Positions 6,001-63,881 are shown, counted from the stretch's first letter. The stretch: DNA of 64,000 nucleotides from an uncultured Pseudomonadales bacterium (GCA_964570365.1 CAZMXT010000001.1:73440-137439); one strand, 5' to 3'. The notes: a model not told the origin generated them from the sequence alone. Made by a program: numbers and translations.

Positions 6001-6625
6001 CTTACAAGATAATGACCCACAACCAGAAAAGTACAAGCTGCAGCCTAAAACCAATGTCACACTAAAAAGCAATGGTCAATGGAACACCTATACACATTTC
6101 TTTGTACCCAATGAGTATGCAAAAGAAGTGAACCTCTTTATTACCTCCTTTAACTCTGAAGGAACAAATCCTGAAATAGAAATTCGGAATTTTGAGGTAA
6201 AGAAAATTGCTACACTAGATGTATTTTTAGTAAAGCAAGCTTCTCCAATCACCTCGAAGAATCTCAATTCAGAAAAAATTCCTATCAGTTTCACAACTTT
6301 GAATCCAACCAAACACTTGATACATCTCAACACTGCCCCAGAATCTTTCTTTCTACACTTTAATCAAAGTTACAATCCTGGATGGGCACTTTATCCTGCT
6401 GGAACCCCTTGGTGGCAGACACTCTGGAAAAAATCAATTGCGGCAGATGCTCACTTTATAGGGAACACCTATGCTAATACTTGGTACCTGAAAAATGCTC
6501 AACATCAAGACTTAATTGTTTTTTACCGACCTCAGGCCGTCTTTTACGCGGCTGCCTTAATTTCAACCATTATGATCATCTTTAGCACTTCCTACTTGAT
6601 TCTAATCACAAGAAAAAGAAAATGA
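3083..6625 (+). CDS. giant membrane protein: N-terminal multi-TM domain of about 480 aa plus a large C-terminal non-membrane domain of about 700 aa
   Basis: An 1180-aa ORF. The N-terminal half is hydrophobic, with GHDAGFRLDMTNYLRDLWYSWTPSPGFG in the first loop. The C-terminal half is hydrophilic and has one final TM segment (AAALISTIMIIFSTSYLILI). An alternative TTG start at 3176, preceded by AAAGG, would widen the 33-bp divergent gap. Confidence 0.65.
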   Translation: MQLTFQKSSCIVILKIAFTYTSDFHLKAKGRLKILSFFKFLKRIPSWVTEVVILFFLSWTPFFWLKSDQVILGHDAGFRLDMTNYLRDLWYSWTPSPGFGADWTLNKGFLIAQTPETFFTFVTNDVSLGQRLSFVFWFFMIGLSMYIFVKHFFPRKEFFTFRIFSSLFYMYNFFLLQGWFITERGKFSLYVALPLGLLILYETLLKKIPPLKGATLFGLIFFFFNGGGSPPLYGAILVVYSVSFFYLSFVNIWQNGAKGLLHSLKTIFLFGVITVLLNSYWIIPQIQLAKNQYGARLAASGGIESILNWEKTVSKNASLINLFRLQGIPDWYDSPNHTYSRFFLENPLLIVLSFLPISLILLGLFLHHRFRVEERNDHLFFLILLILIVSCLFAAGSHDPFGSIYLLFIKYIPGFAIFRSAIYKFGPGVWFSIIFLSGYSLNFLLLHLRSRKKLSLVITSLSIFTLLAYHFPFFTHQFFQFDPPFGTRVAVPKYVIETAGYMNKNASSDSRLLLLPKLYPSFPVDSYKWGFWSFDLLPRLSFSHSVIVNEAGAPPIIDSLYKAADQQNLLVFNRISQMLGVNYVLWRSDILYHDKKTQAKEFSDNLFSPMNANHPESVKDFNEWQLYPLTTSSKLFSTHQRATLTQISGSGFAKVLESEPVMSPGKLYLDQADLEETALSRELSLDSAYIIEAHCLNCHYLTDPNFPLFGVSFPFVRFLPNSLIYPYVIFKENEALANASNSPVKKIDTGLLFADKRINEVSFLLQEHQDARLAESLQATINRYKSLIATIQTELPELSGLTQRENQTKLLSHLYAHQKLLYQSSGVSSELSEFVQATLRSIEEEDSIIQRTGFLSSAEAVNVKKFLISVPVSGTYEVHLVNTDVKKIKSLWQGKEVDLSNELSLEVGEYQLEIIYPKAENLTLSRPVEISGKLQEKNSERVGFNIQDFDHASEYFISFEYFSQQEQSTSFSILQDNDPQPEKYKLQPKTNVTLKSNGQWNTYTHFFVPNEYAKEVNLFITSFNSEGTNPEIEIRNFEVKKIATLDVFLVKQASPITSKNLNSEKIPISFTTLNPTKHLIHLNTAPESFFLHFNQSYNPGWALYPAGTPWWQTLWKKSIAADAHFIGNTYANTWYLKNAQHQDLIVFYRPQAVFYAAALISTIMIIFSTSYLILITRKRK

Positions 6626-17660: not shown

Positions 17661-18429
17661 AAATTTCCCATAACTTTAAGTACGCTACAGCATGATGCAA
17701 TCCACTAAAAATAGCAAAAACAAACCCCGCTGCTCCATCAAGTAAGCCTTTGTGCCGGAAAAAGATCATAAGAAAAGTAAAGACTGGCTTCCAAATCAAG
17801 AACTGAGCTGCCGTCAAAATATTCACCTTCGTACCAAGCTCTTTTAGTTGAGTACTTTTGAAGGTGGTATATGTGTTGAACTTGCGAAGGTACTCACTAA
17901 AGTTATGGTTACCATAATGAAGTAGGTGACCCTTTGCCCAAGCAACTTCCCCTTTTACTACCATTTGTTCATGCACGTCTTTCTGAGGAAGCTTGGCGAG
18001 TCCTTTTCGGTACAAACGAATTACCGCATCCGGATACTGACCTCCTTTAGAAAGAAACCTCCCTAAGAACCAGTTCTTCCGTTTAATCCACCACCCAGCT
18101 GGAAGGGCTGACTCAGATGAAGGTTTTTGAATCTCCTGATGAAGCACCTGAATGAATGCAGCCAATTCATCATCTACTACTTCGTCGGCATCTAACTGCA
18201 GAATCAAGTCGCCAGTTGCTAAGTCCATTGCTTGTTGCTTATTAATATGAAAGTTTGCTTTATTGGTGGTGGCCGTAACTTTAGCACCCAACTTTTCTGC
18301 CAACTCTACTGTTTTATCCTCAGACTCTCCGTCTACCACAATAATTTCATCTGCAAAACTTTTGACTGCGAGGAGACAGCGTGTAATATTTTTTTCTTCA
18401 TTGTGGGTAGCAAGGACGACTGAGATCAT
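17635..18429 (-). CDS. GT2 family glycosyltransferase
   Basis: It has MISVVLATHNEEKNITRCL...IIVVDGESEDKT...LDADE, a GT-A fold with DxD-like motifs. Confidence 0.8.
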   Translation of the reverse strand: MISVVLATHNEEKNITRCLLAVKSFADEIIVVDGESEDKTVELAEKLGAKVTATTNKANFHINKQQAMDLATGDLILQLDADEVVDDELAAFIQVLHQEIQKPSSESALPAGWWIKRKNWFLGRFLSKGGQYPDAVIRLYRKGLAKLPQKDVHEQMVVKGEVAWAKGHLLHYGNHNFSEYLRKFNTYTTFKSTQLKELGTKVNILTAAQFLIWKPVFTFLMIFFRHKGLLDGAAGFVFAIFSGLHHAVAYLKLWEIYERDHHLS

Positions 18430-18854
18430 AGTGACGGTAACGCTCCAAACTTACGAAGGGTTCTCTCTGTGCCTGTATTCAGATCATACTTCTGCAAATC
18501 ATCAGACTTTACCCAAGCAAAATCCACCCACTCATCATTAAGCTGAACACTTCCTTCAACACTCACATCAAAGTAGAGGTAAATTAAGTACTGTTCCTCT
18601 GTTGTCCCATCACGAAACTTTTTAAGTTTTTGATCGTCTGCAAAAAAAAGCGGTGAGAGTGTTTTTACATATAAAGCAGACTCTTCCCAAATCTCTCTTT
18701 TTAAAGCTTCCTCCACTGTTTCATTGTCTTCTACACCTCCACCAACTAAACCCCATTGTCCAGGAAAAACCCCATGGTCATTGGACATCTTACAGAGTAA
18801 GAACTCCCCTGCCTGATTTCTAATGACACCAACTGCAATTAAACGTCTGAGCAT
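18426..18854 (-). CDS. NUDIX hydrolase
   Basis: The Nudix box GGGVEDNETVEEALKREIWEES is present. At 142 aa it is the size of GDP-mannose mannosyl hydrolase-like Nudix enzymes found in sugar clusters. Confidence 0.8.
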   Translation of the reverse strand: MLRRLIAVGVIRNQAGEFLLCKMSNDHGVFPGQWGLVGGGVEDNETVEEALKREIWEESALYVKTLSPLFFADDQKLKKFRDGTTEEQYLIYLYFDVSVEGSVQLNDEWVDFAWVKSDDLQKYDLNTGTERTLRKFGALPSL

Positions 18855-49539: not shown

Positions 49540-51093
49540 GTGAAAACTCGTTACCTCTACCTCGGAATCATTTTAACTTACCTGCTTTCTCACTTATGGA
49601 ATCTGAGTGTATTTCCAGTTTTTTCTGATGAAGCTATCTATATTCGCTGGTCGCAATTGATACTAGACGACTGGAAACAGTACTTATTTTTTGCCATGAA
49701 TGACGGCAAAACACCATTATTTATTTGGCTACTTACTCCCTTACAGTTGTTTTTTAGCAATCAATTGGTAGCCGGCAGAATTTTGTCTGTAGCAGTTGGG
49801 CTTGCTCAAGTTCTCGTCATGGGCCAGCTAGTGAAGCAACTTGGTGGGCGACGGCAGACTCAATTTCTGGCCATGCTCTTTTCTACTCTGCTACCATTTT
49901 GGTTTTTTTCTCACCGCGTTGCTTTGATGGACGGTTTATTGACTCTCTTTCTTTCCTTAGCATTTTGGTCGGGGCTGAGGTTGGTTCAAGGGTCACAGAA
50001 AAATCTGCGGCACGCTGCCCCACTAATTACCTTGACTGGCATCTTTACTGGCTTAGCAGTTTGGAGCAAGCTCCCAGCCATTTTCTTTGTCGGTGCATTA
50101 CCACTATTGAGCTCACTGCCTGCCCAGCTAAGTCGGGAGGAAAGGGTCCGTAGATTCTTGTACTTAGGAGTGGCAGCAGGAATCGGTATTTTTATGTTGT
50201 TGCTACTGCGAGTTAGTCCCGCTTTTGGTCAACTGTTCAGTCGTAGTCAAGACTTTACCTACTCTCTAAGTGAAATCATGGTTGAAGGTAAATGGACCCA
50301 GACCTTGCCCAGCTTCCCTACTTACTTTGCATACTTTGGTCAGTATCTCACCTGGCCGGTAGTAGTCTTAAGTTTGGCTGGACTTTTTATGGATACAACC
50401 AGGAGGAAAGTAGCCATATTACTGCTATTTGCTGTAGCCTTCTGTCTGCCCATTACCTTGCTTGGAAAAGTCGTGTACCCTCGCTACTTATTGCCTGGAG
50501 CTATTTTCTTTACCTTGGCCAGCGTACTGACACTCCAAGCAATGCACGATCAAATATTTGTCCTAAAAAAAGCAAAGTCTATGCTTTATCAAGTGATGAT
50601 TGCATTGCTGTTTGCAGCTATTCTGGGAAATATTTTTACTGCTTCTGCCAGCTTTACTGCAGCCTTTACTTTTGCTCCCAATGCAACCCCGTTTGTCTCC
50701 GCTGACCGTCAACAGTACTTGGAGGAATGGTCATCAGGACACGGTATTTCCGAAGTAGCAGCAATGATTAAAGAGGCAGCCAAGACAAGAAAAATTGCAG
50801 TGGCCACAGAAGGCAGATTCGGCACTTTGCCTGACGGCCTACTGCTTTTCTTTCATCGTACGAATACCGAAAACATTTATATTGAAGGCACTGGTCAGTA
50901 CCCAGTCAAGACCTTGCCTGAATTCTTTGTCCAACGAGCTAAATTAGCCAACCAATCATGGTTAATAGTCAACTCCCATCGGATGGAGCTTCCCCTAGAC
51001 GAGTCCAAGTTAATTCGAGAATTTTGCCGACCCAACAACGCGCCCTGTCTTCAGGTCTGGGATGTAACGGATGAGGTGAAAAAGGCCCCTTAG
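49540..51093 (+). CDS. GT-C glycosyltransferase, PMT/ArnT-like
   Basis: Loop 1 reads VFPVFSDEAIYIRWSQLILDDW...DGKTPLFIW, a DE motif in the correct position. It is 517 aa with a C-terminal soluble domain. Confidence 0.65.
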   Translation: MKTRYLYLGIILTYLLSHLWNLSVFPVFSDEAIYIRWSQLILDDWKQYLFFAMNDGKTPLFIWLLTPLQLFFSNQLVAGRILSVAVGLAQVLVMGQLVKQLGGRRQTQFLAMLFSTLLPFWFFSHRVALMDGLLTLFLSLAFWSGLRLVQGSQKNLRHAAPLITLTGIFTGLAVWSKLPAIFFVGALPLLSSLPAQLSREERVRRFLYLGVAAGIGIFMLLLLRVSPAFGQLFSRSQDFTYSLSEIMVEGKWTQTLPSFPTYFAYFGQYLTWPVVVLSLAGLFMDTTRRKVAILLLFAVAFCLPITLLGKVVYPRYLLPGAIFFTLASVLTLQAMHDQIFVLKKAKSMLYQVMIALLFAAILGNIFTASASFTAAFTFAPNATPFVSADRQQYLEEWSSGHGISEVAAMIKEAAKTRKIAVATEGRFGTLPDGLLLFFHRTNTENIYIEGTGQYPVKTLPEFFVQRAKLANQSWLIVNSHRMELPLDESKLIREFCRPNNAPCLQVWDVTDEVKKAP

Positions 51094-51776
51094 GTAAGCT
51101 CATGGAGTGTTAATTCTTTAACGATGTACCCAAATCCCCGAATGGTTTGAATGATTGTGTTGTGGGAACCTAGCAGGATCCTGATCCGTCGCATGTAGAC
51201 GTCAATCGTGGTAAACGAAGGAGTATCTGCTTCCCCCCAAATATTATCGATGATCATTTCTCGGTTGATGACACAATTTTTATGACGAACTAAAAAAGCT
51301 AAAAGCTCAAACTCCCGCTTCCGAAGCTGGACAGTTCTCTGACCTACATGCACTAATCCAGCCCTGGGAAACAAACTCAGCTGGCCAGCTCTTAAAGGAC
51401 CGCTATCTAGATTCTTGGTTCTAGCTAACAGCTTCTGCACACGCAGTAGTAACTCAACACTAGAGAAGGGCTTCGCCAAGTAATCGTCTGCTCCTTTTTG
51501 TAGGCCAAAAATGCGATCAGGGATAGAGCACTTCTCGGAGAGAATCAAAATTGGAGAGGTTGATAGCGAATGGTGTAGATACTCAGCAATTTCTACCCCG
51601 TCACCGTCTGGCAATCGGCGATCGAGCATCACCAAGCTGGGACGATGAGTCGCCAAAAAAGTATATCCTTCCTCCAAGTTGGCTGCCGTAAAAACCCTAT
51701 ACTCGGACTTGGGTAATAGCTGCTGAATGGAGTGGGTCAACTGGGTATCATCTTCCACTACCAAAATATTGTGCAT
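51090..51776 (-). CDS. OmpR/PhoB-family response regulator (receiver plus winged-helix DNA-binding domain)
   Basis: The receiver domain reads ILVVEDDTQL...VMLDRRLPDGDG...KPFS. The C-terminal winged-helix domain reads TVQLRKREFELLAFL...TIRGFGYIV. No histidine kinase is adjacent. Confidence 0.9.
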   Translation of the reverse strand: MHNILVVEDDTQLTHSIQQLLPKSEYRVFTAANLEEGYTFLATHRPSLVMLDRRLPDGDGVEIAEYLHHSLSTSPILILSEKCSIPDRIFGLQKGADDYLAKPFSSVELLLRVQKLLARTKNLDSGPLRAGQLSLFPRAGLVHVGQRTVQLRKREFELLAFLVRHKNCVINREMIIDNIWGEADTPSFTTIDVYMRRIRILLGSHNTIIQTIRGFGYIVKELTLHELT

Positions 51777-51851
51777 ACCCTGACTATATCAAAGAAGATT
51801 AAATTATTCTTAAATTTTGGGAGAAATTGGCGAGCAGATTTTGAAACTTTG

Positions 51852-51922
51852 ATCCCAGGCTAGGATTCGAACCTAGAAGAACAGGGTCAGAACCTGTTGT
51901 GATGCCATTTCACTACCTGGGA
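51852..51922 (-). tRNA. tRNA-Gln (anticodon CUG)
   Basis: The reverse complement folds as a cloverleaf: acceptor TCCCAGG/CCTGGGA, D-stem GTGA/TCAC, anticodon stem ACAGG/CCTGT with loop TTCTGAC, and T-arm CTAGG-TTCGAAT-CCTAG. It has a U1-A72 pair and no encoded CCA. Confidence 0.75.
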
Positions 51923-52072
51923 GCTCAGCACTTAACCGAGGAATTATAACAAAACTCCTCCATTCCTACAGCTAGGGCTTCATTTAATAATCTTTTAATA
52001 TTGCTGTCATTGTTTTGTCATCTATTTTAAATAGAATTTGTCTATTATTACTCTACGAATAAAAGAACTCTT

Positions 52073-52666
52073 ATGAGCAGAGAAAAAAAGAATCCCGTTG
52101 TGCAGGGTGACCTAGCAGAAACAGCTCGTACCCAACCACTTCCCTTTATTTTAATGAACGGGGAGTGGCAGGATGGCACTCCTTGGCAGTTTGTGGCCAC
52201 TCCATCTTCAGAAAACTTTCCCAACCCTAGTCTGTGTACAGCTGCCTTCTGTGTGGTGACTTATCAAGAAAAACTCGTCGTGGTTGAGCACACCAAACGA
52301 GGGATCGAGCTCCCCGGCGGGCATGTTGATCCAGATGAAGAAATTCCCCGGACCGTTGAGCGGGAGGTACTAGAAGAATCTGGCGCCAGAGTCCTCCAGC
52401 CCACCTTTTTTGGCTACAAGAAAGTCTCACCAGCGAATCCAATTCCTCATCGAGATGATCAAAGCAAATTTTATCCTTTTCCTCATTCCTTTGTTCCCTA
52501 CTACTTCTGCGAAGCTGCAGAGATGCTCAATGTGCCGTTGGCAGCGGACGTGAAGGCTGTCCACTTAGTTACCCTCCAGGAAGCTCGCCAGCTCTTCACG
52601 CCAGGACAGAATCATCACGTAATCATTCAACACTTACTCCAACAAGGAGTCATCAGACTGCAATGA
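52073..52666 (+). CDS. NUDIX hydrolase
   Basis: The Nudix box GGHVDPDEEIPRTVEREVLEESG is present. It is the first gene of the aminosugar operon. Confidence 0.85.
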   Translation: MSREKKNPVVQGDLAETARTQPLPFILMNGEWQDGTPWQFVATPSSENFPNPSLCTAAFCVVTYQEKLVVVEHTKRGIELPGGHVDPDEEIPRTVEREVLEESGARVLQPTFFGYKKVSPANPIPHRDDQSKFYPFPHSFVPYYFCEAAEMLNVPLAADVKAVHLVTLQEARQLFTPGQNHHVIIQHLLQQGVIRLQ

Positions 52667-53643
52667 TGAAGCCAACTCCACCAATCACCCGACCTATTTC
52701 TATTGGCTTGATTGGCTATGGAAAGCAAGGTAGTCAGCACTTTGAGAGCCTACTTCCACTGATCAAACAGCATCGAATCCAGATCTGCGGTATTTGTGAC
52801 CTACTCCAGCCTGGAACATTTCAAAATATCCCCTTTTTTCAGGATTACCGTGATCTGTTGGCAGAGCAAAAACCAGATGCGGTCATTATCACCACTCCTA
52901 ACTACTTACACCAAGAGATCGGCATGGCAGCGCTCAGCGCAGGTTGTGACATCATTAAGGAAAAGCCATTGGCAACTTCGTATGCCGAGGGCAAAGAGCT
53001 GATTCAACGAGCAGAAACGCTGGACCGATTGGTCATTACTGCCCAGCAGCGTTTCTACTCTCCATTTTTTCAAAAGGTAAAGCAGCTCATTCCTGAGCTG
53101 GGAGAAATCTTGGACTTCTCTTATCACTTCACCGTCAATGATGAAACCAATAGCTGGTACTGGGAACTGGCAAAAGCCGGCGGAGGTAGCTGGTTAAATA
53201 TGGGCTGGCACGGCATTACGATTTTGCAGTGGCTGCTTGGTCCAGTCACCGATGTCCAACTGACCTGGAACACAGGCGGCAAACGCAACTGGGTGTATGA
53301 CACTGACCACAGCTCATTCGCCCGCCTTACTATTAACCAGAACACTACCGGTCATGTGTTCTTCAGCTGTATCTACCCAAAAGAAGAGTCGCTCAAGATT
53401 GTTGGCAATAATGGCACAATTCTCCTGACGCGGGAAAAGTTGAAGTTTATTACTTCTACCAAGGTTCGCGTTTACCGCTCCTTTCAACCCACTACCACTG
53501 CCTATGTCCGCCAGTATCAGCGCATCTTTCAACAGTTGGGGACGCGAGAGCACCGCATGCAGGCAGATCTTCAAACGTTGGCCGTTATCTCACAGGGAAT
53601 CGAGTCCCTCAATAAAGGAGGCTTCCATGCCAAAAAAAACTGA
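52663..53643 (+). CDS. Gfo/Idh/MocA-family NAD(P)-dependent sugar oxidoreductase (WbpB/WlbA-like candidate)
   Basis: It has ISIGLIGYGKQGSQH (Rossmann) and ITTPNYLHQEIGMAAL...EKPLA, a typical Gfo/Idh/MocA N-domain. Confidence 0.8.
   Translation: MMKPTPPITRPISIGLIGYGKQGSQHFESLLPLIKQHRIQICGICDLLQPGTFQNIPFFQDYRDLLAEQKPDAVIITTPNYLHQEIGMAALSAGCDIIKEKPLATSYAEGKELIQRAETLDRLVITAQQRFYSPFFQKVKQLIPELGEILDFSYHFTVNDETNSWYWELAKAGGGSWLNMGWHGITILQWLLGPVTDVQLTWNTGGKRNWVYDTDHSSFARLTINQNTTGHVFFSCIYPKEESLKIVGNNGTILLTREKLKFITSTKVRVYRSFQPTTTAYVRQYQRIFQQLGTREHRMQADLQTLAVISQGIESLNKGGFHAKKN
53612..53620 (+). promoter_or_regulatory. Shine-Dalgarno sequence (AAAGGAGG) for the aminotransferase gene
   Basis: A perfect AAGGAGG core lies 7 nt upstream of the ATG at 53627, inside the 3' end of the preceding gene. 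Confidence 0.5.
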
Positions 53644-54901
53644 AGCGATCTTGGCCATTAATGGTGGTATCCCCGCCGTTACACTTACCCCACCCCATCA
53701 TATCTGGCCACCTGCTCCGACCGAAGATGAAAGACGGGATTTAATGCAGCAACGAGAGCTTGATATCGGCATTAAAGGCCGCGTCGGACCTATCCGAGTT
53801 TTTGAGGAACTGTTTAAAGACTTTCTGGAACACCAGGTTCAGTATGCGATTACCTTCAACTCCGGCACCTCAGCGCTCCTGGCAGCGTACTTTGCACTAG
53901 GTATTGAAGAAGGTGATGAAGTGATTGCCCCAGCAATTACCTACCATGCGGCTGTTAGTTGCCTATATTTTTTACGCGCCAATCCTGTCCTCGTAGATGT
54001 AGAACTAGATACCTGGACGATTGATCCGGCCAAGATTGAAGCCGCAATTTCTCCGCGGACCAAAGCAATTATTGTCGTTCATCAATGGGGGCATCCCGCT
54101 GACATGGATCGCATCCTTGCAATCGCCAAGAAGCATCGCCTCAAAGTCATTGAGGATTGTTCTCATGCTCACGGCAGTCGGTACAAGGGGAGACTAGTGG
54201 GCACATTCGGTGAGGTGGCAGTCTTCTCACTCCAAACCAATAAGCTGATCTTCGCTGGAGAAGGGGGGATTTTAGTCACGAATAGCATGGAGGTGCACGA
54301 TCGGGCGACCTTGCTCGGACATTATCGAGATCGTTCTAAAAATGAAGTTATCTCTAAGTTCTATCAGCAATTTTGGGTGACGGGCTATGGTCTAAAACTT
54401 CGCATGTCTCCCTACAATGCCATTACCGCCATCCATTCTTTAGCGGCTGCTCATACGCGAATTGCCATGCGCAAAGCTTGTTTGGAGTACTTTTCTGAGA
54501 AACTACGAGTCTTTCCAGAACTAACTATTCTGCAACCGAGAACTGAAGTGGAACTAGGTGCCTGGTATGGCTTCAAGCCTCGGTATGATTCCAGCAAGTT
54601 TCATAGTATTTCTCGTCAAAAATATATTGATGCGTTAGTTGCAGAAGGGGTAGATGTGAGTGAGCCAGGTTCGCCAGCCTTTTCGAGCTTGCCTCTTTTT
54701 ACTCTCAAAGATGACCAGATGTTTCGCAATCGTGATACTAAAAAAGTCTATCAGCCTGGTGACTTTCCTCAGGCAGAAAGATTAGCTCGTGAAAGCCTTT
54801 CCCTCCCGACATTCTCACGTTGGCCAGATGACAAAAAAGCTATGAATCAGTATGTCGCTGCGTTTCAAAAGTTACATGATAACTGGCAGGAATTAGCATG
54901 A
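53627..54901 (+). CDS. DegT/DnrJ/EryC1/StrS-family PLP-dependent sugar aminotransferase
   Basis: It has ITFNSGTSALLAAYFALGIEEGDEVI...HQWGHPADM...FSLQTNKLI (PLP-lysine region). The start is set at MPKK (ATG 53627-53629), 7 nt downstream of AAAGGAGG. The track's longer ORF starting at 53504 overlaps the previous gene. Confidence 0.85.
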   Translation: MPKKTEAILAINGGIPAVTLTPPHHIWPPAPTEDERRDLMQQRELDIGIKGRVGPIRVFEELFKDFLEHQVQYAITFNSGTSALLAAYFALGIEEGDEVIAPAITYHAAVSCLYFLRANPVLVDVELDTWTIDPAKIEAAISPRTKAIIVVHQWGHPADMDRILAIAKKHRLKVIEDCSHAHGSRYKGRLVGTFGEVAVFSLQTNKLIFAGEGGILVTNSMEVHDRATLLGHYRDRSKNEVISKFYQQFWVTGYGLKLRMSPYNAITAIHSLAAAHTRIAMRKACLEYFSEKLRVFPELTILQPRTEVELGAWYGFKPRYDSSKFHSISRQKYIDALVAEGVDVSEPGSPAFSSLPLFTLKDDQMFRNRDTKKVYQPGDFPQAERLARESLSLPTFSRWPDDKKAMNQYVAAFQKLHDNWQELA

Positions 54902-55464
54902 CCAAGATCTTATTCACTGGTACTACTAGCTCGGGAAAAACCACCCTCCTGCGTCACTTTAAAGCAAACTCGAGAGTTGGCGTCACCGTTATTGATGAAG
55001 TAGCCCGACCAATTCTGGAAAATCATCCTGAGCTCCTCAAAAGCCCCCAACTACAAAGCATTATTTTTGCCGAACAAACCAGGCTAGAAAAAGAGGCGGC
55101 GGCGGCGGGAGCAGGGGTCATTCTCTGCGACCGAGGCAGCGTAGACGTTCTGGCACATGCAAAACTTTTTGGTCAGGAACTTCTCCCAGAGTGGCGCACC
55201 TGGAGCCAGCAGGAATATGACCAAATTTACTTGCTTGACCAGAAGGACATTCGGTTCCAGCGAACACCCCTTCAGCAACACCTGGAAGAACAGGACTGGG
55301 GAAAGTTCCGGATGGACTTAGAAGCGCAACTCCACCTTACCTTAGCTGAGTGCGGTTTGGCCTACACTATTCTCTCTGGGAGCGTAGAGCATCGAATTGC
55401 TCAGGTTGAAGAGAAAATCTGGCAAAGCTTGTGGGAAGCAGAAAGACGGCATCAGAAAGAGTAA
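54898..55464 (+). CDS. P-loop NTPase / predicted kinase (AAA_28/NadR-kinase-like)
   Basis: It has the Walker A motif FTGTTSSGKTT and a Walker B-like VILCDRG. It is 188 aa and ATGA-coupled to the aminotransferase. Confidence 0.55.
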   Translation: MTKILFTGTTSSGKTTLLRHFKANSRVGVTVIDEVARPILENHPELLKSPQLQSIIFAEQTRLEKEAAAAGAGVILCDRGSVDVLAHAKLFGQELLPEWRTWSQQEYDQIYLLDQKDIRFQRTPLQQHLEEQDWGKFRMDLEAQLHLTLAECGLAYTILSGSVEHRIAQVEEKIWQSLWEAERRHQKE

Positions 55465-55465
55465 G

Positions 55466-56227
55466 ATGCCCATTTTTAATCAAAGCATTTTCTTTTGGTG
55501 CTGCAAGCCACTAGGTGCTCTTTGTCTGGAATTCCTTCTCCAGACACTTGAAAAACAGTACTCAATCACCAAGCTTCTTGGTGTCTGTACTGCTACAACT
55601 GATTCCTCTCATCAGCAGATTAGTGAGATCGCCCAAAAGTATAACGTTCCTGTTTTTACGGAAGACCAGCCGATCGATCTACATGCTGATCTAGGTCTAG
55701 TGATAGGCTTTCCACAGCGCATCCCACTCAGTACCATCCAACGTTTTTCGCATGGAGTAATCAACCTGCACTTTGCCCCCCTGCCCGAATATCGGGGCTC
55801 GGGTACTCTCACTCATGCCATCATTAACCAAGCAGAGACGTATGGCCTGACCTTCCACTATATTGACGAGAAACTAGATACTGGACCAATCATTGCTACG
55901 CGACTGATTCCACTTTCTCCCACCAAAATAGCCTCACAGGTAATCGAAGAGCTGGAGGAACTTGGCTTTAGTTTTTTCCAGGAGTATCTAGAGCGCTTTA
56001 TCACTACTAAACTGCCGACTACCCCACAAGCAGAGTTGATCAGGCACTTTCAGATCATTCCGAAGTTCTGCACGCGGAAATCCATTGAAGAATTATATGA
56101 GCTCTCTCCAGCTTGGTCACTCGAAAAAATCCACCGCTATGTACGAGCGCTGAGTCTGGGAAAAAATCGCCAACCATACTTCAAGTTTGGAGAACAGAAA
56201 ATCTTTTTGAGCCTTAGGCAAACGTAA
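55466..56227 (+). CDS. formyltransferase (Fmt/ArnA-N/PurN-type N-10-formyl-THF-dependent sugar N-formyltransferase candidate)
   Basis: NLHFAPLPEYRGSGTLTHAIIN matches the HxSLLPxxRG formyltransferase core, and the catalytic Asp region DEKLDTGPII is present. The start is placed at MPIFNQ (ATG 55466), immediately after the upstream stop. Confidence 0.7.
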   Translation: MPIFNQSIFFWCCKPLGALCLEFLLQTLEKQYSITKLLGVCTATTDSSHQQISEIAQKYNVPVFTEDQPIDLHADLGLVIGFPQRIPLSTIQRFSHGVINLHFAPLPEYRGSGTLTHAIINQAETYGLTFHYIDEKLDTGPIIATRLIPLSPTKIASQVIEELEELGFSFFQEYLERFITTKLPTTPQAELIRHFQIIPKFCTRKSIEELYELSPAWSLEKIHRYVRALSLGKNRQPYFKFGEQKIFLSLRQT

Positions 56228-57437
56228 ACATGCCCTTTTCGTAAATCACTCGGCGTGTACCGTTGGTCATGACAGCTGTCACAGTTCGATCAGTTGTGGA
56301 GATAATGTCAGTGTGCTCAGGAGAGTCGTTGAAGCCATGAGCTTCCCAGTCTTCCTTACTCAGATCTGCCGGGTTACCGCGATAACAATCCTTGTATGCC
56401 ATCCCAATTGCTAAGTGAGTATTCCCAAAAGGGCCACCGATATTTTCATCATAGAGCGTCTCTGCCATCACGTGTGTGATCCGAGACATTCGCTTGTCGG
56501 TGAGGGAGTATTCACCAATTTTATTGGCGTTCTTACTCTTGAGCATCTGTTGCAGTAATTTGTTGCCGACTCGAGCATGAGCCTGCGTCACTATGCCATC
56601 TTTAAATGTCAGCGAAATATCTCGCAGGACATTGCCATAACGGTAAAGTGGTTGATTAAACTTAATCCACCCTTCAGTGCCTCGCCAATCCGGTGACGTA
56701 AAAAACTCAAAGCTGGGAATATTGCGACCACCTCCCCCATTCCAGATTCGATTGGCACCGAGCTTGACCCGCAAATCCACGTCTTTCCCTTTTACTTCCA
56801 AGTAATCAATCTCCATCTCGTTGAGTTTTGCTTTGATCTGACGTTGGAAGATGAGTAACTCTTGCCACTCAGCCACGGGATTTGCCTTGTCCAGGAAGCA
56901 AGCCTTAATGATTTGTTGCCAGTAGTCTTTTAAGGAAAGACCAACTTCTCTGGCTGCTGCCTCTACTCCCCAGAGTCCAATCGTCCAGGTAAACTTTCCT
57001 TGAGTTTCTTTCTCAACTAACCACTCGCGATACTTGGTTTTTGAGTCGCGGGACAAAGTGATTTTCTGTGGATCAATATTCTTCAATTCTTGAGGATCCA
57101 CGTCAGCAATGATCGAGATATGATGATTCAATAAGGCAACTTTGGCTTTGGTGAACTCTGCTGGAAAGAACTCTAGTTGGTCATTTGATGCCAGCTGGAA
57201 AAAGTCTTTGCTAAAACCGGTCGGGGTTAAGCGGATAATCGGATGTCCGCCTGCTTCCAGGATGACATTCTGCAACTCCCGCGCTAGGGGTTTGGCCACA
57301 TCTGGGACTGTACACTCCACGACTTCCCCAGCCTTCATTCCTTTCCCTGAGTTCAGGGCGAACTTAACTAATACTTCCGCATATCGACGTAAAATTTTGG
57401 TAGGAGGTAGATAAAAAGAAGTATCTAAAGTTTTCAT
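56214..57437 (-). CDS. aminopeptidase, M29 (AmpS/PepS) family
   Basis: A 407-aa protein whose N-terminus (RRYAEVLVKFALNSGKGMKAGEVV) matches the conserved M29 start. It contains the metal-binding His/Glu/Asp-rich segments. Confidence 0.65.
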   Translation of the reverse strand: MKTLDTSFYLPPTKILRRYAEVLVKFALNSGKGMKAGEVVECTVPDVAKPLARELQNVILEAGGHPIIRLTPTGFSKDFFQLASNDQLEFFPAEFTKAKVALLNHHISIIADVDPQELKNIDPQKITLSRDSKTKYREWLVEKETQGKFTWTIGLWGVEAAAREVGLSLKDYWQQIIKACFLDKANPVAEWQELLIFQRQIKAKLNEMEIDYLEVKGKDVDLRVKLGANRIWNGGGGRNIPSFEFFTSPDWRGTEGWIKFNQPLYRYGNVLRDISLTFKDGIVTQAHARVGNKLLQQMLKSKNANKIGEYSLTDKRMSRITHVMAETLYDENIGGPFGNTHLAIGMAYKDCYRGNPADLSKEDWEAHGFNDSPEHTDIISTTDRTVTAVMTNGTRRVIYEKGMFTFA

Positions 57438-58021
57438 TTCTTTTCCTGTAGATAAATAAATAGCTTGGCCATTGCCATAGCTCGGTGACTAATTAGCCCT
57501 TTGACCTGATCTCCAAGCTGGCCAAATGAGTCCTGATAGCCGGTCGGCACAAAAATGGGATCATAGCCAAAACCGGCTTCACCTTCAGTTGCTAGAGCTA
57601 TAGTACCGGTCACTTCACCTTCAAAAAACTGACATATATCAATCTGGGGATCATACCATGCGATCACGCTCACAAACTTGGCGCTACGATCTGAGTGAGT
57701 TTCCAGCTGGCGCAAAACTTCATTTACCCGATCTTTATCTGAACCTGGAAAAAAGCGCTTTGAGTGCACGCCGGGACGATTATTGAGGGCAGTAACTAAC
57801 AGTCCGCTATCATCTGCTATGGCCAGCAGACCTGATTGTTGACTAAAGCCACGGGCTTTGAGCTCAGCATTTTCCTCAAAAGTCTGCCCCGTTTCTTCGA
57901 CGTCAAATTCCTCAGGAACTCCAACCTCTGCCGGAGAAACTACCGTAATGGGCAGAACCTGAAAAGCGGTTCTGATCTCTTGAATTTTTTCGGGATTGCG
58001 ACTGGCTACCAGCAACTGCAT
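57434..58021 (-). CDS. rdgB: non-canonical purine NTP pyrophosphatase (dITP/XTP pyrophosphatase)
   Basis: It has LLVASRNPEKIQE...DDSGL...GFGYDPIF, Ham1/RdgB family motifs. Confidence 0.85.
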   Translation of the reverse strand: MQLLVASRNPEKIQEIRTAFQVLPITVVSPAEVGVPEEFDVEETGQTFEENAELKARGFSQQSGLLAIADDSGLLVTALNNRPGVHSKRFFPGSDKDRVNEVLRQLETHSDRSAKFVSVIAWYDPQIDICQFFEGEVTGTIALATEGEAGFGYDPIFVPTGYQDSFGQLGDQVKGLISHRAMAMAKLFIYLQEKK

Positions 58022-62792: not shown

Positions 62793-63881
62793 TTACTCTG
62801 TAAGAGCCGGTGCTAACTGCACATACCGGGGGTCGATGGCCGGAACAAAACCTAAAAAGTTATTATCACCCTCAAAAACATAGATTGGCTGTAAGTATTC
62901 TTGTTCCTCAAAGTCATCGTAGTAGCCTAAGTAGACATCTCGAATGATGATATTCTCATCACTCCCCCGCACTGCAATGAATCCCTCACCACCTTGGAGA
63001 AGCTGCCAAGCATTCTGAACCGTGCGCAGCGGGTACGTGTGACGCTGTAAGTAATCTGCTGCTTGGTAATGATACTCAGCGTGGACGATGCTGTCACTGC
63101 CACCTAAACTGCTACTGAGCACTGCATGAATAATCCCTTTTCGCCCCTCGGGTGAGTAAAATTGATACTTTCCATCAACTGGCTGTCGCATAATATCAAC
63201 TTGGGCAAAATCTGCATCTGAGAGTGAAACAGCAGGGATAAACTCATTCCCTAGCGATCTCAGGTACGTCACACTCCCCGAAGACGTCGCAATATCTGAG
63301 CTGAGACTCACGCCAGAGTTAATAAAAGATTTTACATTTTCCAGTGCTGAGACCTCATCTGGGAGGTTCTGCCCCCCCAAGAGTTCAGGCTTATTCAAGT
63401 AATTGGTGGTGAGAGTAAAGTTATGATCTAAGAGATCCATCTCGAGAGTACTGTCTAAAGGAGCAGATTTATTCCAACGATATGTTCGATCATTCAGAAT
63501 AGTGGGGGCGAAGACAAAGCCATATCCAGCGGCAATTTCTTTAATACGTTGGTCCGCCAATAGACTGGTGCTGGCGTGCAGCATCAAGAAAACTTTGGCC
63601 CGATCTTCAAACTTCGGTAGCTGCCCATTAAACGTTTCCAAGGTGTAGGAGCTGGGTTTATTGGCAGCGTCTTGTTCTGGAAGACGAATCTGCGGCAGTA
63701 CTCCGAAACCAACGGTTGGAGGGGGAGGGGCTGGCGGGTGGGTCGCGCGCCAATAGCCACTGGCAGCTATTAGGAATGTCCGGCCGACCATTAAGGCAAC
63801 AATCGCAATTGCACCAAACTTAATAGTTCGACGACCAATATACGCTGCACGAGTAAGGGTAAGACCAGCTTCTGTTGCCAT
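62793..63881 (-). CDS. membrane-anchored extracytoplasmic protein, hypothetical
   Basis: It has an N-terminal TM anchor (FGAIAIVALMVGRTFLIAASGYW), then a proline-rich linker (HPPAPPPPTVG), then a soluble domain of about 300 aa with no recognised motif. Confidence 0.5.
   Translation of the reverse strand: MATEAGLTLTRAAYIGRRTIKFGAIAIVALMVGRTFLIAASGYWRATHPPAPPPPTVGFGVLPQIRLPEQDAANKPSSYTLETFNGQLPKFEDRAKVFLMLHASTSLLADQRIKEIAAGYGFVFAPTILNDRTYRWNKSAPLDSTLEMDLLDHNFTLTTNYLNKPELLGGQNLPDEVSALENVKSFINSGVSLSSDIATSSGSVTYLRSLGNEFIPAVSLSDADFAQVDIMRQPVDGKYQFYSPEGRKGIIHAVLSSSLGGSDSIVHAEYHYQAADYLQRHTYPLRTVQNAWQLLQGGEGFIAVRGSDENIIIRDVYLGYYDDFEEQEYLQPIYVFEGDNNFLGFVPAIDPRYVQLAPALTE

What the first reader, a model, noticed from the sequence alone, without database searches (positions are those of the whole stretch)
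52073..56227. Operon for an N-formylated (or otherwise N-acylated) amino sugar
The operon encodes a NUDIX hydrolase, a Gfo/Idh/MocA oxidoreductase, a DegT aminotransferase, a P-loop protein and a formyltransferase. The oxidoreductase plus aminotransferase pairing mirrors the WbpB/WbpE (WlbA/WlbC) logic for 3-amino sugars, and the formyltransferase would add an N-formyl group. Together with the upstream UDP-sugar 6-dehydrogenase and rmlB, a candidate product is a formamido-dideoxyhexose or a 3-formamido-uronic acid. No N-acetyltransferase is present in the window.
Basis: partly seen in the sequence, partly recalled or inferred. Interest (0 to 1): 0.6.

Follow-up and report, generated by a model that had tools for sequence, protein, structure and literature searches.

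The report
Formylated aminonucleotide operon in Patescibacteria
The five genes are a real operon, but its aminotransferase is a close relative of the puromycin enzyme Pur4, so it most likely puts a formylated amino group on the ribose of a nucleotide (a possible new antibiotic-like nucleoside from a tiny-genome bacterium), not on a cell-surface hexose.

Summary
Window 52073-56227 (+) carries five overlapping or abutting genes: NUDIX, Gfo/Idh/MocA, DegT, AAA_28 P-loop protein and a 253-aa formyltransferase.

The keto, then amino, then formamido logic survives. The aminotransferase, however, is not in the WbpE, QdtB or ArnB clades. It is 54-55% identical over its full length to Pur4 orthologues inside puromycin gene clusters, and it sits in a Pur4 clade with 100/100 bootstrap support. 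No other DegT reaches more than 36% identity to that clade.

The oxidoreductase groups with Pur10 rather than WlbA (78-79/100). The P-loop protein has a nucleoside/NMP-kinase fold. Related cassettes carry NTP pyrophosphatases, phosphatases and a nucleobase-type deaminase.

The cassette recurs in Patescibacteria in unrelated genomic contexts, so it is not tied to the upstream ugd and rml genes.

Best reading: a puromycin/ADG-type 3'-amino-3'-deoxynucleotide pathway in which a formyltransferase acylates the 3'-amine and a kinase replaces the usual phosphatase. The predicted product is a 3'-formamido-3'-deoxy nucleotide or nucleoside. I found no description of it in the paper library. This is a new variant of a known kind, and all of it is inferred from sequence.

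The parts
52073..52666 (+). NUDIX hydrolase. Predicted to hydrolyse an aminonucleoside triphosphate (or a dinucleotide). It does the job of Pur7 but is not its orthologue.
   Evidence: Pfam NUDIX E 3e-13, with an intact GX5EX7REUXEEXGU box. Its family is found in the cassettes and in L040, L041 and L117. It carries a conserved S-x-x-Y-P-F-P-x-S motif that aligns with the SQPWPFPQS motif of E. coli NudC. Similarity to Pur7 orthologues is limited to the Nudix box (E 0.014).
52663..53643 (+). Gfo/Idh/MocA NAD-dependent oxidoreductase. Predicted 3'-dehydrogenase in the Pur10 role.
   Evidence: Pfam E 1e-21; GxGxxG and EKP motifs are visible in the sequence. It always lies next to a Pur4-clade DegT gene. 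GFOs from Pur4-type loci, including a true Pur10 orthologue, are monophyletic at 78-79/100, with WlbA outside. Raw scores do not discriminate: Pur10 60-73 bits, WlbA 69.8 bits.
53627..54901 (+). Pur4-clade DegT/PLP aminotransferase. Predicted 3'-keto-nucleotide aminotransferase.
   Evidence: 54.7% and 53.6% identity over about 410 aa to the Pur4 orthologues in the puromycin clusters of L033 and L034. The Pur4 clade has 100/100 bootstrap support; identity within the clade is at least 47%, to outside DegTs at most 36%. The best solved structure scores only 163 bits. The PLP-binding lysine aligns with ArnB K188. An AAGGAGG site precedes the ATG.
54898..55464 (+). AAA_28 P-loop protein. Predicted nucleoside or nucleoside-monophosphate kinase.
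   Evidence: Pfam AAA_28 E 6e-22. AlphaFold model pLDDT 88.5. The nearest solved folds are the NadR ribosylnicotinamide-kinase domain, then thymidylate kinases and deoxynucleoside kinases. A Walker A motif plus E-x-A-R and C-D-R-G motifs are invariant in the 6-member alignment.
55466..56227 (+). Short (253 aa) N10-formyl-THF-type formyltransferase. Predicted N-formylation of the new amine.
   Evidence: Formyl_trans_N E 2e-16, no Formyl_trans_C. N100, H102 and D138 are invariant in 23 homologues and align with ArnA N102, H104 and D140. Model pLDDT 94.6. TM-scores of 0.78-0.81, normalised either way, to the roughly 245-aa sugar N-formyltransferases (VioF, and the Shewanella and Pseudomonas congelans enzymes). 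The family is small: 98 representatives at E<=1e-30, about 16 above 200 bits.

Best explanation
The operon is a Patescibacterial version of the aminonucleoside core pathway known from puromycin (Pur10, Pur4, Pur7, Pur3) and from the Photorhabdus 3'-amino-3'-deoxyguanosine operon (adgB-E).

**Inferred steps.**
1. The Gfo/Idh/MocA enzyme oxidises the 3'-OH of a ribonucleotide, probably a purine NTP.
2. The Pur4-type aminotransferase converts the 3'-ketone into a 3'-amine.
3. The NUDIX enzyme removes pyrophosphate from the toxic 3'-amino-NTP, giving the monophosphate.
4. The formyltransferase formylates the 3'-amine. Related cassettes have an amino-acid-ligating enzyme in this slot (Pur6, an ATP-grasp enzyme, or a class I tRNA-ligase-like protein).
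5. The NadR/TMPK-like kinase stands where other cassettes have a phosphatase. It would keep or return the compound in phosphorylated form. This is the least certain step.

**Predicted product.** A 3'-formamido-3'-deoxy nucleotide or nucleoside. It could be an antimetabolite or a masked chain terminator.

**Status.** No step has been shown biochemically for these proteins. My confidence is about 0.7 that the substrate is a nucleotide rather than an NDP-hexose, and about 0.5 that the formyl group goes on the 3'-amine.
For: **Aminotransferase.**
- It is 54-55% identical over its full length to Pur4 orthologues. Those orthologues lie in clusters with the puromycin gene order: M28 peptidase, NUDIX, GFO, a 763-aa protein, DegT, methyltransferase, Inositol_P phosphatase, GNAT, O-methyltransferase, MFS.
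- S. megasporus is listed as a holder of a puromycin cluster in PMC11641026.
- The Pur4 clade is supported 100/100.
- A metagenome scan shows an identity gap: 50-62%, then 37% or less.

**Oxidoreductase.** It groups with Pur10, with WlbA outside, at 78-79/100. A GFO gene lies within 5 kb in 18 of 20 Pur4-clade loci, versus 15 of 88 other DegT loci.

**Pyrophosphatases.** A strict Nudix-box ORF lies within 5 kb in 9 of 20 Pur4-clade loci and in 0 of 88 other DegT loci (p = 4e-8). Other cassettes have a MazG-like gene in that position, weakly in L116 and annotated as such in L124.

**Nucleotide-type accessory genes in related cassettes.**
- Inositol_P or HAD phosphatases.
- A cytidine/dCMP-deaminase-family gene.
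- A kinase with an NMP-kinase fold.

**Independence from glycan genes.** The cassette keeps its composition while its flanks change completely.

**Experimental precedent.** adgB-E alone make 3'-amino-3'-deoxyguanosine in E. coli (PMC9239236).

**Formyltransferase.** The catalytic triad is intact.
Against: - The NUDIX is not orthologous to Pur7.
- The oxidoreductase scores no better against Pur10 than against WlbA, and its clade support is moderate, from neighbour-joining only.
- The closest relatives of the formyltransferase outside the family (25-30% identity) lie beside ordinary sugar-type DegT and GFO genes, in one case inside a glycan cluster. Its best solved sequence match is a sugar 3-N-formyltransferase.
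- In the window and in L002, L121 and L122 the cassette lies near glycosylation genes.
- A second NUDIX gene sits inside the window's glycan island, so a NUDIX gene alone does not exclude sugar chemistry.
- There is no exporter and no phosphatase in the operon, so an antibiotic role is unsupported.
- Substrate switching at 55% identity cannot be excluded.
Confidence: 0.6

Rival explanations
1. A WlbA/WlbC-like (or RifL/RifK kanosamine-like) pair makes an NDP-3-amino-3-deoxy-hexose or uronic acid. This is N-formylated and used by the neighbouring glycosyltransferases.
For: - The best solved sequence match of the oxidoreductase is WlbA (3q2i and 3q2k, E 2e-18), and that of the formyltransferase is WlaRD.
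- GFO-DegT-FT triads occur in several other phyla (Thermoplasmata, Omnitrophota, Blastocatellia and others). The one whose context I annotated (L008, Omnitrophota) lies in a glycan cluster.
- The window is a large glycosylation island.
Against: - The aminotransferase belongs to the Pur4 clade (100/100). It scores only 111-146 bits against WbpE, QdtB and ArnB, versus about 495 against Pur4 orthologues.
- WlbA falls outside the oxidoreductase's clade.
- The cassette occurs without glycan genes in L001, L004 and L035.
- The NUDIX, the NMP-kinase-fold protein and the deaminase variants have no role in this scheme.
Confidence: 0.2
2. A variant of the main idea in which the substrate is NAD or nicotinamide-riboside related. 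The ribose of an NAD-type dinucleotide or riboside is aminated and formylated. The NUDIX acts as a NudC-like dinucleotide pyrophosphatase and the P-loop protein as a riboside kinase.
For: - The NUDIX family conserves S-x-x-Y-P-F-P-x-S, which aligns with the NudC signature SQPWPFPQS.
- The top structural matches of the kinase are NadR ribosylnicotinamide-kinase domains, and NCBIfam gives a weak nadR hit.
Against: - Similarity to NudC is weak (33 bits). The best family hit of the NUDIX is the YtkD/RppH type.
- Thymidylate and deoxynucleoside kinases match the kinase model almost as well.
- The characterised relatives of the aminotransferase start from ATP or GTP.
Confidence: 0.1
3. An Arn-like pathway. 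Ugd plus a decarboxylase make a UDP-4-keto-pentose. The DegT enzyme acts like ArnB and the formyltransferase like the N-terminal domain of ArnA. The ArnC-like GT2 and ArnT-like GT-C enzymes nearby then transfer the aminopentose.
For: ugd, UXS-like epimerase/dehydratase genes, a GT2-GtrA protein and many PMT-type GT-C genes lie upstream. An Arn-like arrangement with a related formyltransferase exists in L008.
Against: - E. coli ArnB scores 135 bits and ArnA 29 bits against the window proteins.
- An Arn pathway needs no Gfo/Idh/MocA enzyme, NUDIX or kinase.
- The cassette moves independently of these genes.
Confidence: 0.03

Closest known systems
Photorhabdus luminescens adgA-E operon (3'-amino-3'-deoxyguanosine; PMC9239236)
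   Same: A compact operon with a Pur10-type oxidoreductase, a Pur4-type aminotransferase and an NTP pyrophosphatase. adgB-E alone suffice to make the aminonucleoside in E. coli. Loci L116 and L118 have an adg-like layout (GFO, DegT, a weakly MazG-like 175-aa protein, Inositol_P). Their oxidoreductase is closer to the window's (119-124 bits) than any oxidoreductase from a locus with an ordinary (non-Pur4) DegT (70 bits or less).
   Different: The window operon has no Pur3-type phosphatase and no MFS exporter. It adds a nucleoside/NMP-kinase-fold protein and a formyltransferase. Its NUDIX comes from a different NUDIX lineage.
Puromycin (pur), A201A and cystocin clusters: the Pur10, Pur4, Pur7, Pur3 aminonucleoside core plus an N-acylating step
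   Same: The aminotransferase is 54-55% identical to Pur4 orthologues. The oxidoreductase is in the same clade as Pur10. The overall logic is the same: 3'-oxidation, transamination, pyrophosphate removal, then acylation of the 3'-amine.
   Different: The acyl group would be formyl, added by a folate-type transferase, rather than an amino acid added by Pur6. There are no methyltransferases, no Pac-type acetyltransferase and no exporter. The host is a Patescibacterium rather than an actinomycete.
WlbA/WlbC (WbpB/WbpE) 3-amino sugar pair plus sugar N-formyltransferases (WlaRD, FdtF, QdtF, VioF, ArnA-N)
   Same: The same three enzyme superfamilies and the same keto, amino, formamido chemistry. The formyltransferase has the size and two-domain fold of the small sugar N-formyltransferases.
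   Different: The aminotransferase and oxidoreductase fall outside the WbpE and WlbA lineages. The formyltransferase scores 47.5 bits or less against every characterised enzyme. The NUDIX and kinase genes are extra. Linkage to glycosyltransferases is not conserved.

Membership tests
Puromycin/ADG-type aminonucleoside core (Pur10-Pur4-Pur7-Pur3) | Aminotransferase of the Pur4 lineage | tested here: met
   54.7% and 53.6% identity over about 410 aa to Pur4 orthologues in puromycin clusters. The clade is supported 100/100; identity within it is at least 47%, to outside DegTs at most 36%.
Puromycin/ADG-type aminonucleoside core (Pur10-Pur4-Pur7-Pur3) | Adjacent Gfo/Idh/MocA dehydrogenase of the Pur10 lineage | tested here: inconclusive
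   The gene is adjacent and translationally coupled. It groups with Pur10 and excludes WlbA at 78-79/100 in neighbour-joining trees. Identity to Pur10 is only 22-27%, and its score equals that against WlbA.
Puromycin/ADG-type aminonucleoside core (Pur10-Pur4-Pur7-Pur3) | Pur7-type NUDIX NTP pyrophosphohydrolase | tested here: not met
   A NUDIX with an intact box is present, but similarity to Pur7 orthologues is limited to the box (E 0.014). It is at best a functional analogue.
Puromycin/ADG-type aminonucleoside core (Pur10-Pur4-Pur7-Pur3) | Pur3-type (Inositol_P) monophosphatase releasing the nucleoside | tested here: not met
   No Inositol_P or HAD domain in the operon or in the window ORFs I scanned. 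A kinase-fold gene occupies the operon instead.
Puromycin/ADG-type aminonucleoside core (Pur10-Pur4-Pur7-Pur3) | Product is a 3'-amino-3'-deoxy nucleoside or nucleotide | not testable with these tools
   Requires expression with LC-MS, or enzyme assays.
WbpB/WbpE (WlbA/WlbC) UDP-2,3-diamino sugar pathway | Aminotransferase of the WbpE/WlbC lineage | tested here: not met
   WbpE (3nu7) scores 110.9 bits, versus 491-497 bits for Pur4 orthologues.
WbpB/WbpE (WlbA/WlbC) UDP-2,3-diamino sugar pathway | Dehydrogenase of the WlbA/WbpB lineage | tested here: not met
   WlbA is the best solved hit (69.8 bits). In the tree, however, WlbA groups with oxidoreductases from loci that carry an ordinary (non-Pur4) DegT, outside the window's clade. 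WbpB scores only 30-31 bits.
WbpB/WbpE (WlbA/WlbC) UDP-2,3-diamino sugar pathway | Conserved linkage to sugar-nucleotide and glycosyltransferase genes | tested here: not met
   The flanks in L001, L004 and L035 contain no such genes.
Sugar N-formyltransferases (WlaRD, FdtF, QdtF, VioF, ArnA-N) | Formyl_trans_N core with the Asn-His-Asp catalytic triad | tested here: met
   N100, H102 and D138 are invariant and align with ArnA N102, H104 and D140.
Sugar N-formyltransferases (WlaRD, FdtF, QdtF, VioF, ArnA-N) | Clade membership with a characterised sugar N-formyltransferase | tested here: not met
   The best is WlaRD at 47.5 bits, about equal to an Fmt (45.0) and a PurN (43.0). The fold search does not discriminate either.
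Sugar N-formyltransferases (WlaRD, FdtF, QdtF, VioF, ArnA-N) | Acceptor is an NDP-linked amino sugar | not testable with these tools
   The gene context points to a nucleotide 3'-amine instead. This needs an assay.
Methionyl-tRNA formyltransferase (Fmt) | C-terminal tRNA-binding Formyl_trans_C domain and a TIGR00460 score above its cut-off | tested here: not met
   No PF02911 hit. TIGR00460 scores 66.2 against a cut-off of 201.5. The C-terminal region is about 60 residues shorter than in E. coli Fmt.
NadR-type riboside kinase / NMP-kinase fold (Pfam AAA_28) | P-loop domain above the Pfam cut-off, with a nucleoside/NMP-kinase fold | tested here: met
   AAA_28 scores 79.2 bits against a cut-off of 27. 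The top fold matches are the NadR RNK domain, thymidylate kinases and deoxyadenosine kinase. The substrate is untested.

The most novel reading that the evidence does not exclude
Patescibacteria (CPR) carry a compact pathway for a previously undescribed nucleotide analogue, a 3'-formamido-3'-deoxy purine nucleotide. The formyl group would reversibly mask a 3'-amino chain terminator, giving self-protection or prodrug behaviour, as N-acetylation does for puromycin. The dedicated kinase would keep the compound in nucleotide form. The compound would serve as a weapon against the host bacterium, competitors or phage polymerases. That would make it the first nucleoside-antibiotic-type pathway assigned to these ultra-small episymbionts, and the first N-formyl aminonucleoside.
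Probability: 0.3. Interest if true: 0.8.

Novelty: new variant of a known kind. Interest (0 to 1): 0.62.

Why it matters
- Aminonucleoside pathways are known from actinomycetes (puromycin, A201A, cystocin) and from one Photorhabdus operon (ADG).
- Here the same Pur10/Pur4-type core appears in reduced-genome Patescibacteria. It is joined to a folate-dependent formyltransferase and a nucleoside/nucleotide kinase in place of a phosphatase and an exporter.
- If the prediction holds, it points to a new 3'-modified nucleotide. It also gives a directly testable five-gene operon, and a possible chemical basis for how these episymbionts interact with hosts or phages.
- The Pur4 clade works as a clean genome-mining marker. 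The scan turned up cassettes with varied third components: ATP-grasp enzymes, an aaRS-like ligase, deaminases, and APH-type kinases.
- For annotation, it shows that a DegT, Gfo/Idh/MocA and formyltransferase trio next to glycan genes is not automatically an amino-sugar module.

Tried and rejected
- **Promoter and terminator scan of 51000-57500.** Counts are at shuffle level, so it is uninformative.
- **Rfam.** No riboswitch upstream of the operon. The only hit in the window is a tRNA-Gln gene.
- **PADLOC defence models.** Nothing meaningful.
- **IMG/VR scan with the aminotransferase.** Only relatives at 36% identity or less, so there is no evidence of phage carriage. The phage GenBank collection gave the same result.
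- **Foldseek of the formyltransferase model.** Fmt, ArnA-N, FDH-N and the sugar formyltransferases all come out at E around 1e-15, so the fold cannot place it.
- **Word-indexed homologue search with the kinase.** Only 6 hits, so I have no wider picture of that family.
- **NCBIfam.** No equivalog cut-off is reached by any of the five proteins.
- **Literature searches.** I searched for formylated aminonucleosides and for such cassettes in Patescibacteria. I found nothing relevant.
- **Search of the fetched loci with the published adgB primer.** No match.
- **Housekeeping Fmt.** Rejected on domain content and on the conserved cassette context.
- **Arn-like pathway.** Rejected on scores and on the lack of conserved linkage.

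Full report
**1. What is there**

Window 52073-56227 (+) holds five genes.
- NUDIX, 52073-52666.
- Gfo/Idh/MocA, 52663-53643.
- DegT/DnrJ/EryC1.
- AAA_28 P-loop protein, 54898-55464.
- Formyl_trans_N.

Two mechanical ORF starts are too long. The aminotransferase begins at ATG 53627, behind an AAGGAGG site. The formyltransferase begins at ATG 55466, one base after the kinase stop codon.

Neighbouring genes overlap by 4, 17 and 4 nt or abut, which indicates translational coupling. The operon is preceded by about 150 nt of AT-rich spacer and by a tRNA-Gln(CTG) gene on the opposite strand.

The consensus promoter and terminator scan and Rfam added nothing. No NCBIfam equivalog cut-off is reached by any of the five proteins.

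**2. It is a conserved cassette, independent of the glycan genes**

The formyltransferase belongs to a small family. There are 36 close homologues in the word-indexed search. An exhaustive profile search found 98 representatives at E<=1e-30, of which about 16 score above 200 bits.

The named sources are Candidatus Levybacteria and other Patescibacteria.

Wherever enough contig is available, this formyltransferase sits with the same partners:
- **All five genes:** the window, L001, L002 (with L003 near-identical in the shared part), L004 and L005, and L035, where the order is GFO-DegT-NUDIX-AAA_28-FT.
- **Reduced or varied forms:** L006 (no kinase, NUDIX disrupted), L121 (GFO-DegT-FT), and L122 and L123 (GFO, DegT, a cytidine/dCMP-deaminase-family gene and an unknown gene, then the formyltransferase, preceded by a NUDIX in L122 only).

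The flanks differ completely from locus to locus:
- ECF transporter and methyltransferase genes in L001.
- Suf, thioredoxin and ferredoxin genes in L004.
- DnaG, HD and GreA genes in L035.

So the upstream ugd and rmlBCD genes of the window, 9-14 kb away, are not part of the unit.

**3.

Against solved structures the protein scores as follows:
- 163 bits for the best hit, 7b0m.
- 158 bits for BtrR.
- 146 bits for ArnB.
- 138 bits for QdtB.
- 111 bits for WbpE.

Against the big protein collection it finds more than 100 proteins at 52-69% identity. These include Streptomyces proteins at 54-55%.

The Streptomyces megasporus homologue lies in a locus with this order: M28 peptidase, NUDIX, Gfo/Idh/MocA, a 763-aa protein, DegT, methyltransferase, Inositol_P phosphatase, GNAT, O-methyltransferase, MFS.
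- To my knowledge this is the gene order of the S. alboniger pur cluster: napH, pur7, pur10, pur6, pur4, pur5, pur3, pac, dmpM, pur8.
- PMC11641026 lists S. megasporus among the species that hold puromycin clusters.
- A second Streptomyces locus has the same gene set.

BLASTP gives 54.7% and 53.6% identity over about 410 residues. phmmer gives 491-497 bits.

A metagenome scan shows a clean gap: seven loci at 50-62% identity, and everything else at 37% or less.

In a neighbour-joining tree of 47 DegT proteins, with E. coli ArnB as outgroup, the Pur4 clade is recovered in 100 of 100 bootstraps. It contains the window protein, the other cassette proteins, the two puromycin-cluster proteins and other cassette types. 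Identity within the clade is at least 47%. Identity to outside proteins is at most 36%.

The PLP-binding lysine is conserved.

**4. The company that Pur4-clade genes keep**

Oxidoreductase. A Gfo/Idh/MocA gene lies within 5 kb in 18 of 20 Pur4-clade loci, versus 15 of 88 loci with other DegT genes.

Pyrophosphatase.
- A strict Nudix-box ORF lies within 5 kb in 9 of 20 Pur4-clade loci, versus 0 of 88 (Fisher p = 4e-8).
- The regular expression undercounts. Pfam finds NUDIX domains in further loci.
- These loci are not an independent sample, because several were fetched through the formyltransferase.

Other recurring partners are nucleotide-type:
- An Inositol_P phosphatase together with a weakly MazG-like protein, in an adg-like four-gene layout (L116, L118).
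- A HAD phosphatase together with a protein ending in a NUDIX domain of the window's own NUDIX family (L040, L041).
- An MFS transporter plus a Pur7-like NUDIX (L042).
- ATP-grasp ligases (L036, L117).
- On Bacillus thuringiensis and B. cereus megaplasmids, a 43%-identical DegT. In the B. thuringiensis record I examined (L124) it sits with an oxidoreductase, an MFS transporter, a MazG-like protein, a class I tRNA-ligase-family protein and a GNAT.

The pattern is a conserved oxidoreductase-aminotransferase core, an NTP pyrophosphatase, and a variable enzyme able to acylate an amine. In the window's cassette that variable enzyme is the formyltransferase.

**5. The other four proteins**

Oxidoreductase.
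- Raw scores do not discriminate: Pur10 orthologues 60-73 bits, WlbA 69.8 bits.
- It is closer to the oxidoreductases of adg-like and HAD-type Pur4 cassettes (119-152 bits) than to any oxidoreductase from a locus with an ordinary (non-Pur4) DegT (70 bits or less).
- In neighbour-joining trees, all oxidoreductases from Pur4-type loci form one group at 78-79/100. This group includes a true Pur10 orthologue.
- The two WlbA sequences were transcribed from the PDB alignments. They fall with the oxidoreductases of loci that carry an ordinary DegT.
- This is moderate support, not proof.

NUDIX.
- The Nudix box is intact.
- The protein is not a Pur7 orthologue (E 0.014).
- Its family has a conserved N-terminal extension and an S-x-x-Y-P-F-P-x-S motif that aligns with the NudC signature.
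- Its best curated-family hit is the YtkD/RppH type, an NTP or RNA-5'-triphosphate pyrophosphohydrolase.

P-loop protein. The model (pLDDT 88.5) is closest to the NadR ribosylnicotinamide-kinase domain, then to thymidylate kinases and deoxynucleoside kinases. That makes it a nucleoside or NMP kinase fold.

Formyltransferase.
- The Asn-His-Asp triad is invariant.
- There is no Formyl_trans_C domain.
- The model (pLDDT 94.6) superposes equally well on Fmt, ArnA-N, FDH-N and the sugar formyltransferases. Its size matches the roughly 245-aa sugar enzymes (TM 0.78-0.81).
- By sequence it is nearest to WlaRD, but only marginally: 47.5 bits versus 45.0 for an Fmt.
- Its nearest relatives outside the family (25-30% identity) lie beside ordinary sugar-type DegT and Gfo/Idh/MocA genes. 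In L008 this is inside an Arn-like glycan cluster.
- This suggests recruitment from amino-sugar formyltransferases.

**6. Most likely mechanism (all steps inferred)**

1. NAD-dependent oxidation of a ribonucleotide 3'-OH. The Pur10 precedent, ATP dehydrogenase activity, is cited in PMC11641026.
2. PLP-dependent transamination to the 3'-amine.
3. NUDIX removal of pyrophosphate from the toxic 3'-amino-NTP.
4. Folate-dependent N-formylation of the 3'-amine.
5. Phosphorylation by the kinase, either of an incoming nucleoside or of the product. This would keep the compound as a nucleotide, in place of the dephosphorylation and export seen in the pur and adg systems.

Experimental anchor. adgB-E alone (homologues of pur10, pur4, pur7 and pur3) produce 3'-amino-3'-deoxyguanosine in E. 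coli. Its triphosphate terminates RNA chains (PMC9239236).

Still unknown: the base specificity, the order of steps 3 to 5, and the biological role.

**7. Rivals**

It remains possible, at about 0.2. Reasons: the ancestry of the formyltransferase, the WlbA hit, and the nearby glycan genes in the window and in L002, L121 and L122. A second NUDIX (18426-18854) sits inside the window's glycan island.
- **An NAD or riboside-related substrate.** This is a sub-variant of the main idea, suggested by the NudC-like motif and the NadR-like kinase fold.
- **An Arn-like pathway, or a housekeeping Fmt.** Both are rejected on scores, domain content and lack of conserved linkage.

**8. Novelty and verdict**

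I found no description in the paper library of a formyltransferase-bearing aminonucleoside cassette, or of such cassettes in Patescibacteria. That library is incomplete, so this is absence of evidence only.

I rate it a new variant of a known kind: the puromycin/ADG aminonucleoside core with new tailoring, in a new host group. Interest is moderately high, because the prediction is specific and can be tested with a five-gene construct.

Noticed in passing
window 51851-51922 (-): A tRNA-Gln(CTG) gene lies between the divergent response-regulator gene (51090-51776, -) and the operon. It is the only Rfam hit in the 64-kb window.
   Followed up: yes
window about 6991-51093: Most of the window is one very large glycosylation island. 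It holds at least seven GT-C-type membrane proteins (PMT, PMT_2, PTPS_related), about ten GT2 and two GT1 genes, two Polysacc_synt flippases, rmlBCD, ugd, several epimerase/dehydratases and a LytR_cpsA_psr gene. Several further 400-570-aa ORFs have no Pfam hit and may or may not be additional GT-C proteins.
   Followed up: partly
window 18426-18854 (-): A second, unrelated NUDIX gene (142 aa, E 1e-20) sits among the glycosyltransferase genes. It shows that a NUDIX gene by itself does not separate nucleotide pathways from glycan pathways.
   Followed up: no
window 3083-6625 (+), 1391-3049 (-) and 62793-63881 (-): Large ORFs of 1180, 552 and 362 aa with no Pfam match at E<=1e-3 (the 1180-aa ORF) or E<=1e-4 (the other two).
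   Followed up: no
L124 (Bacillus thuringiensis plasmid NZ_CP126475.1, 472364-484576): An apparently undescribed cluster: oxidoreductase, DegT (43% identical to the window enzyme), MFS transporter, a 589-aa hypothetical protein, a MazG-like protein, a class I tRNA-ligase-family protein and a GNAT. It looks like a peptidyl-aminonucleoside (puromycin-like) gene cluster. The same DegT is present on B. cereus and other B. thuringiensis megaplasmids.
   Followed up: partly
L036 7051-10149 and L117 5992-9501: Oxidoreductase plus Pur4-clade aminotransferase followed by an ATP-grasp ligase. In L036 there are also a NUDIX, a GNAT and an APH-kinase/HisA-like fusion upstream. These are candidate amino-acyl aminonucleoside cassettes on metagenomic contigs of unassigned origin.
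   Followed up: partly
L122 2-4657 and L123 3594-7618: A variant of the formyltransferase cassette with a more divergent aminotransferase (39% identity), a Pur10-like oxidoreductase, a cytidine/dCMP-deaminase-family gene and a 172-174-aa protein with no Pfam hit. It may act on a different base.
   Followed up: partly
L006 842-1798: In this Patescibacteria contig the NUDIX gene appears disrupted. An unrelated N-terminal segment is fused to the post-Nudix-box half of the protein, and the kinase gene is absent. The cassette may be decaying there.
   Followed up: no
window 52073-52666 and family alignment: The cassette NUDIX family has a conserved N-terminal extension of about 55 aa (G-x-W...PWQF, LCTAAFC) and a GHNH motif near the C-terminus. 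Neither matches anything I recognised.
   Followed up: no
L035 6352-6918: A 188-aa gene directly upstream of the rearranged cassette gives a weak hit to nucleoside 2-deoxyribosyltransferase (E 6.5e-4, below the Pfam cut-off). If real, it is another nucleoside-related neighbour.
   Followed up: no
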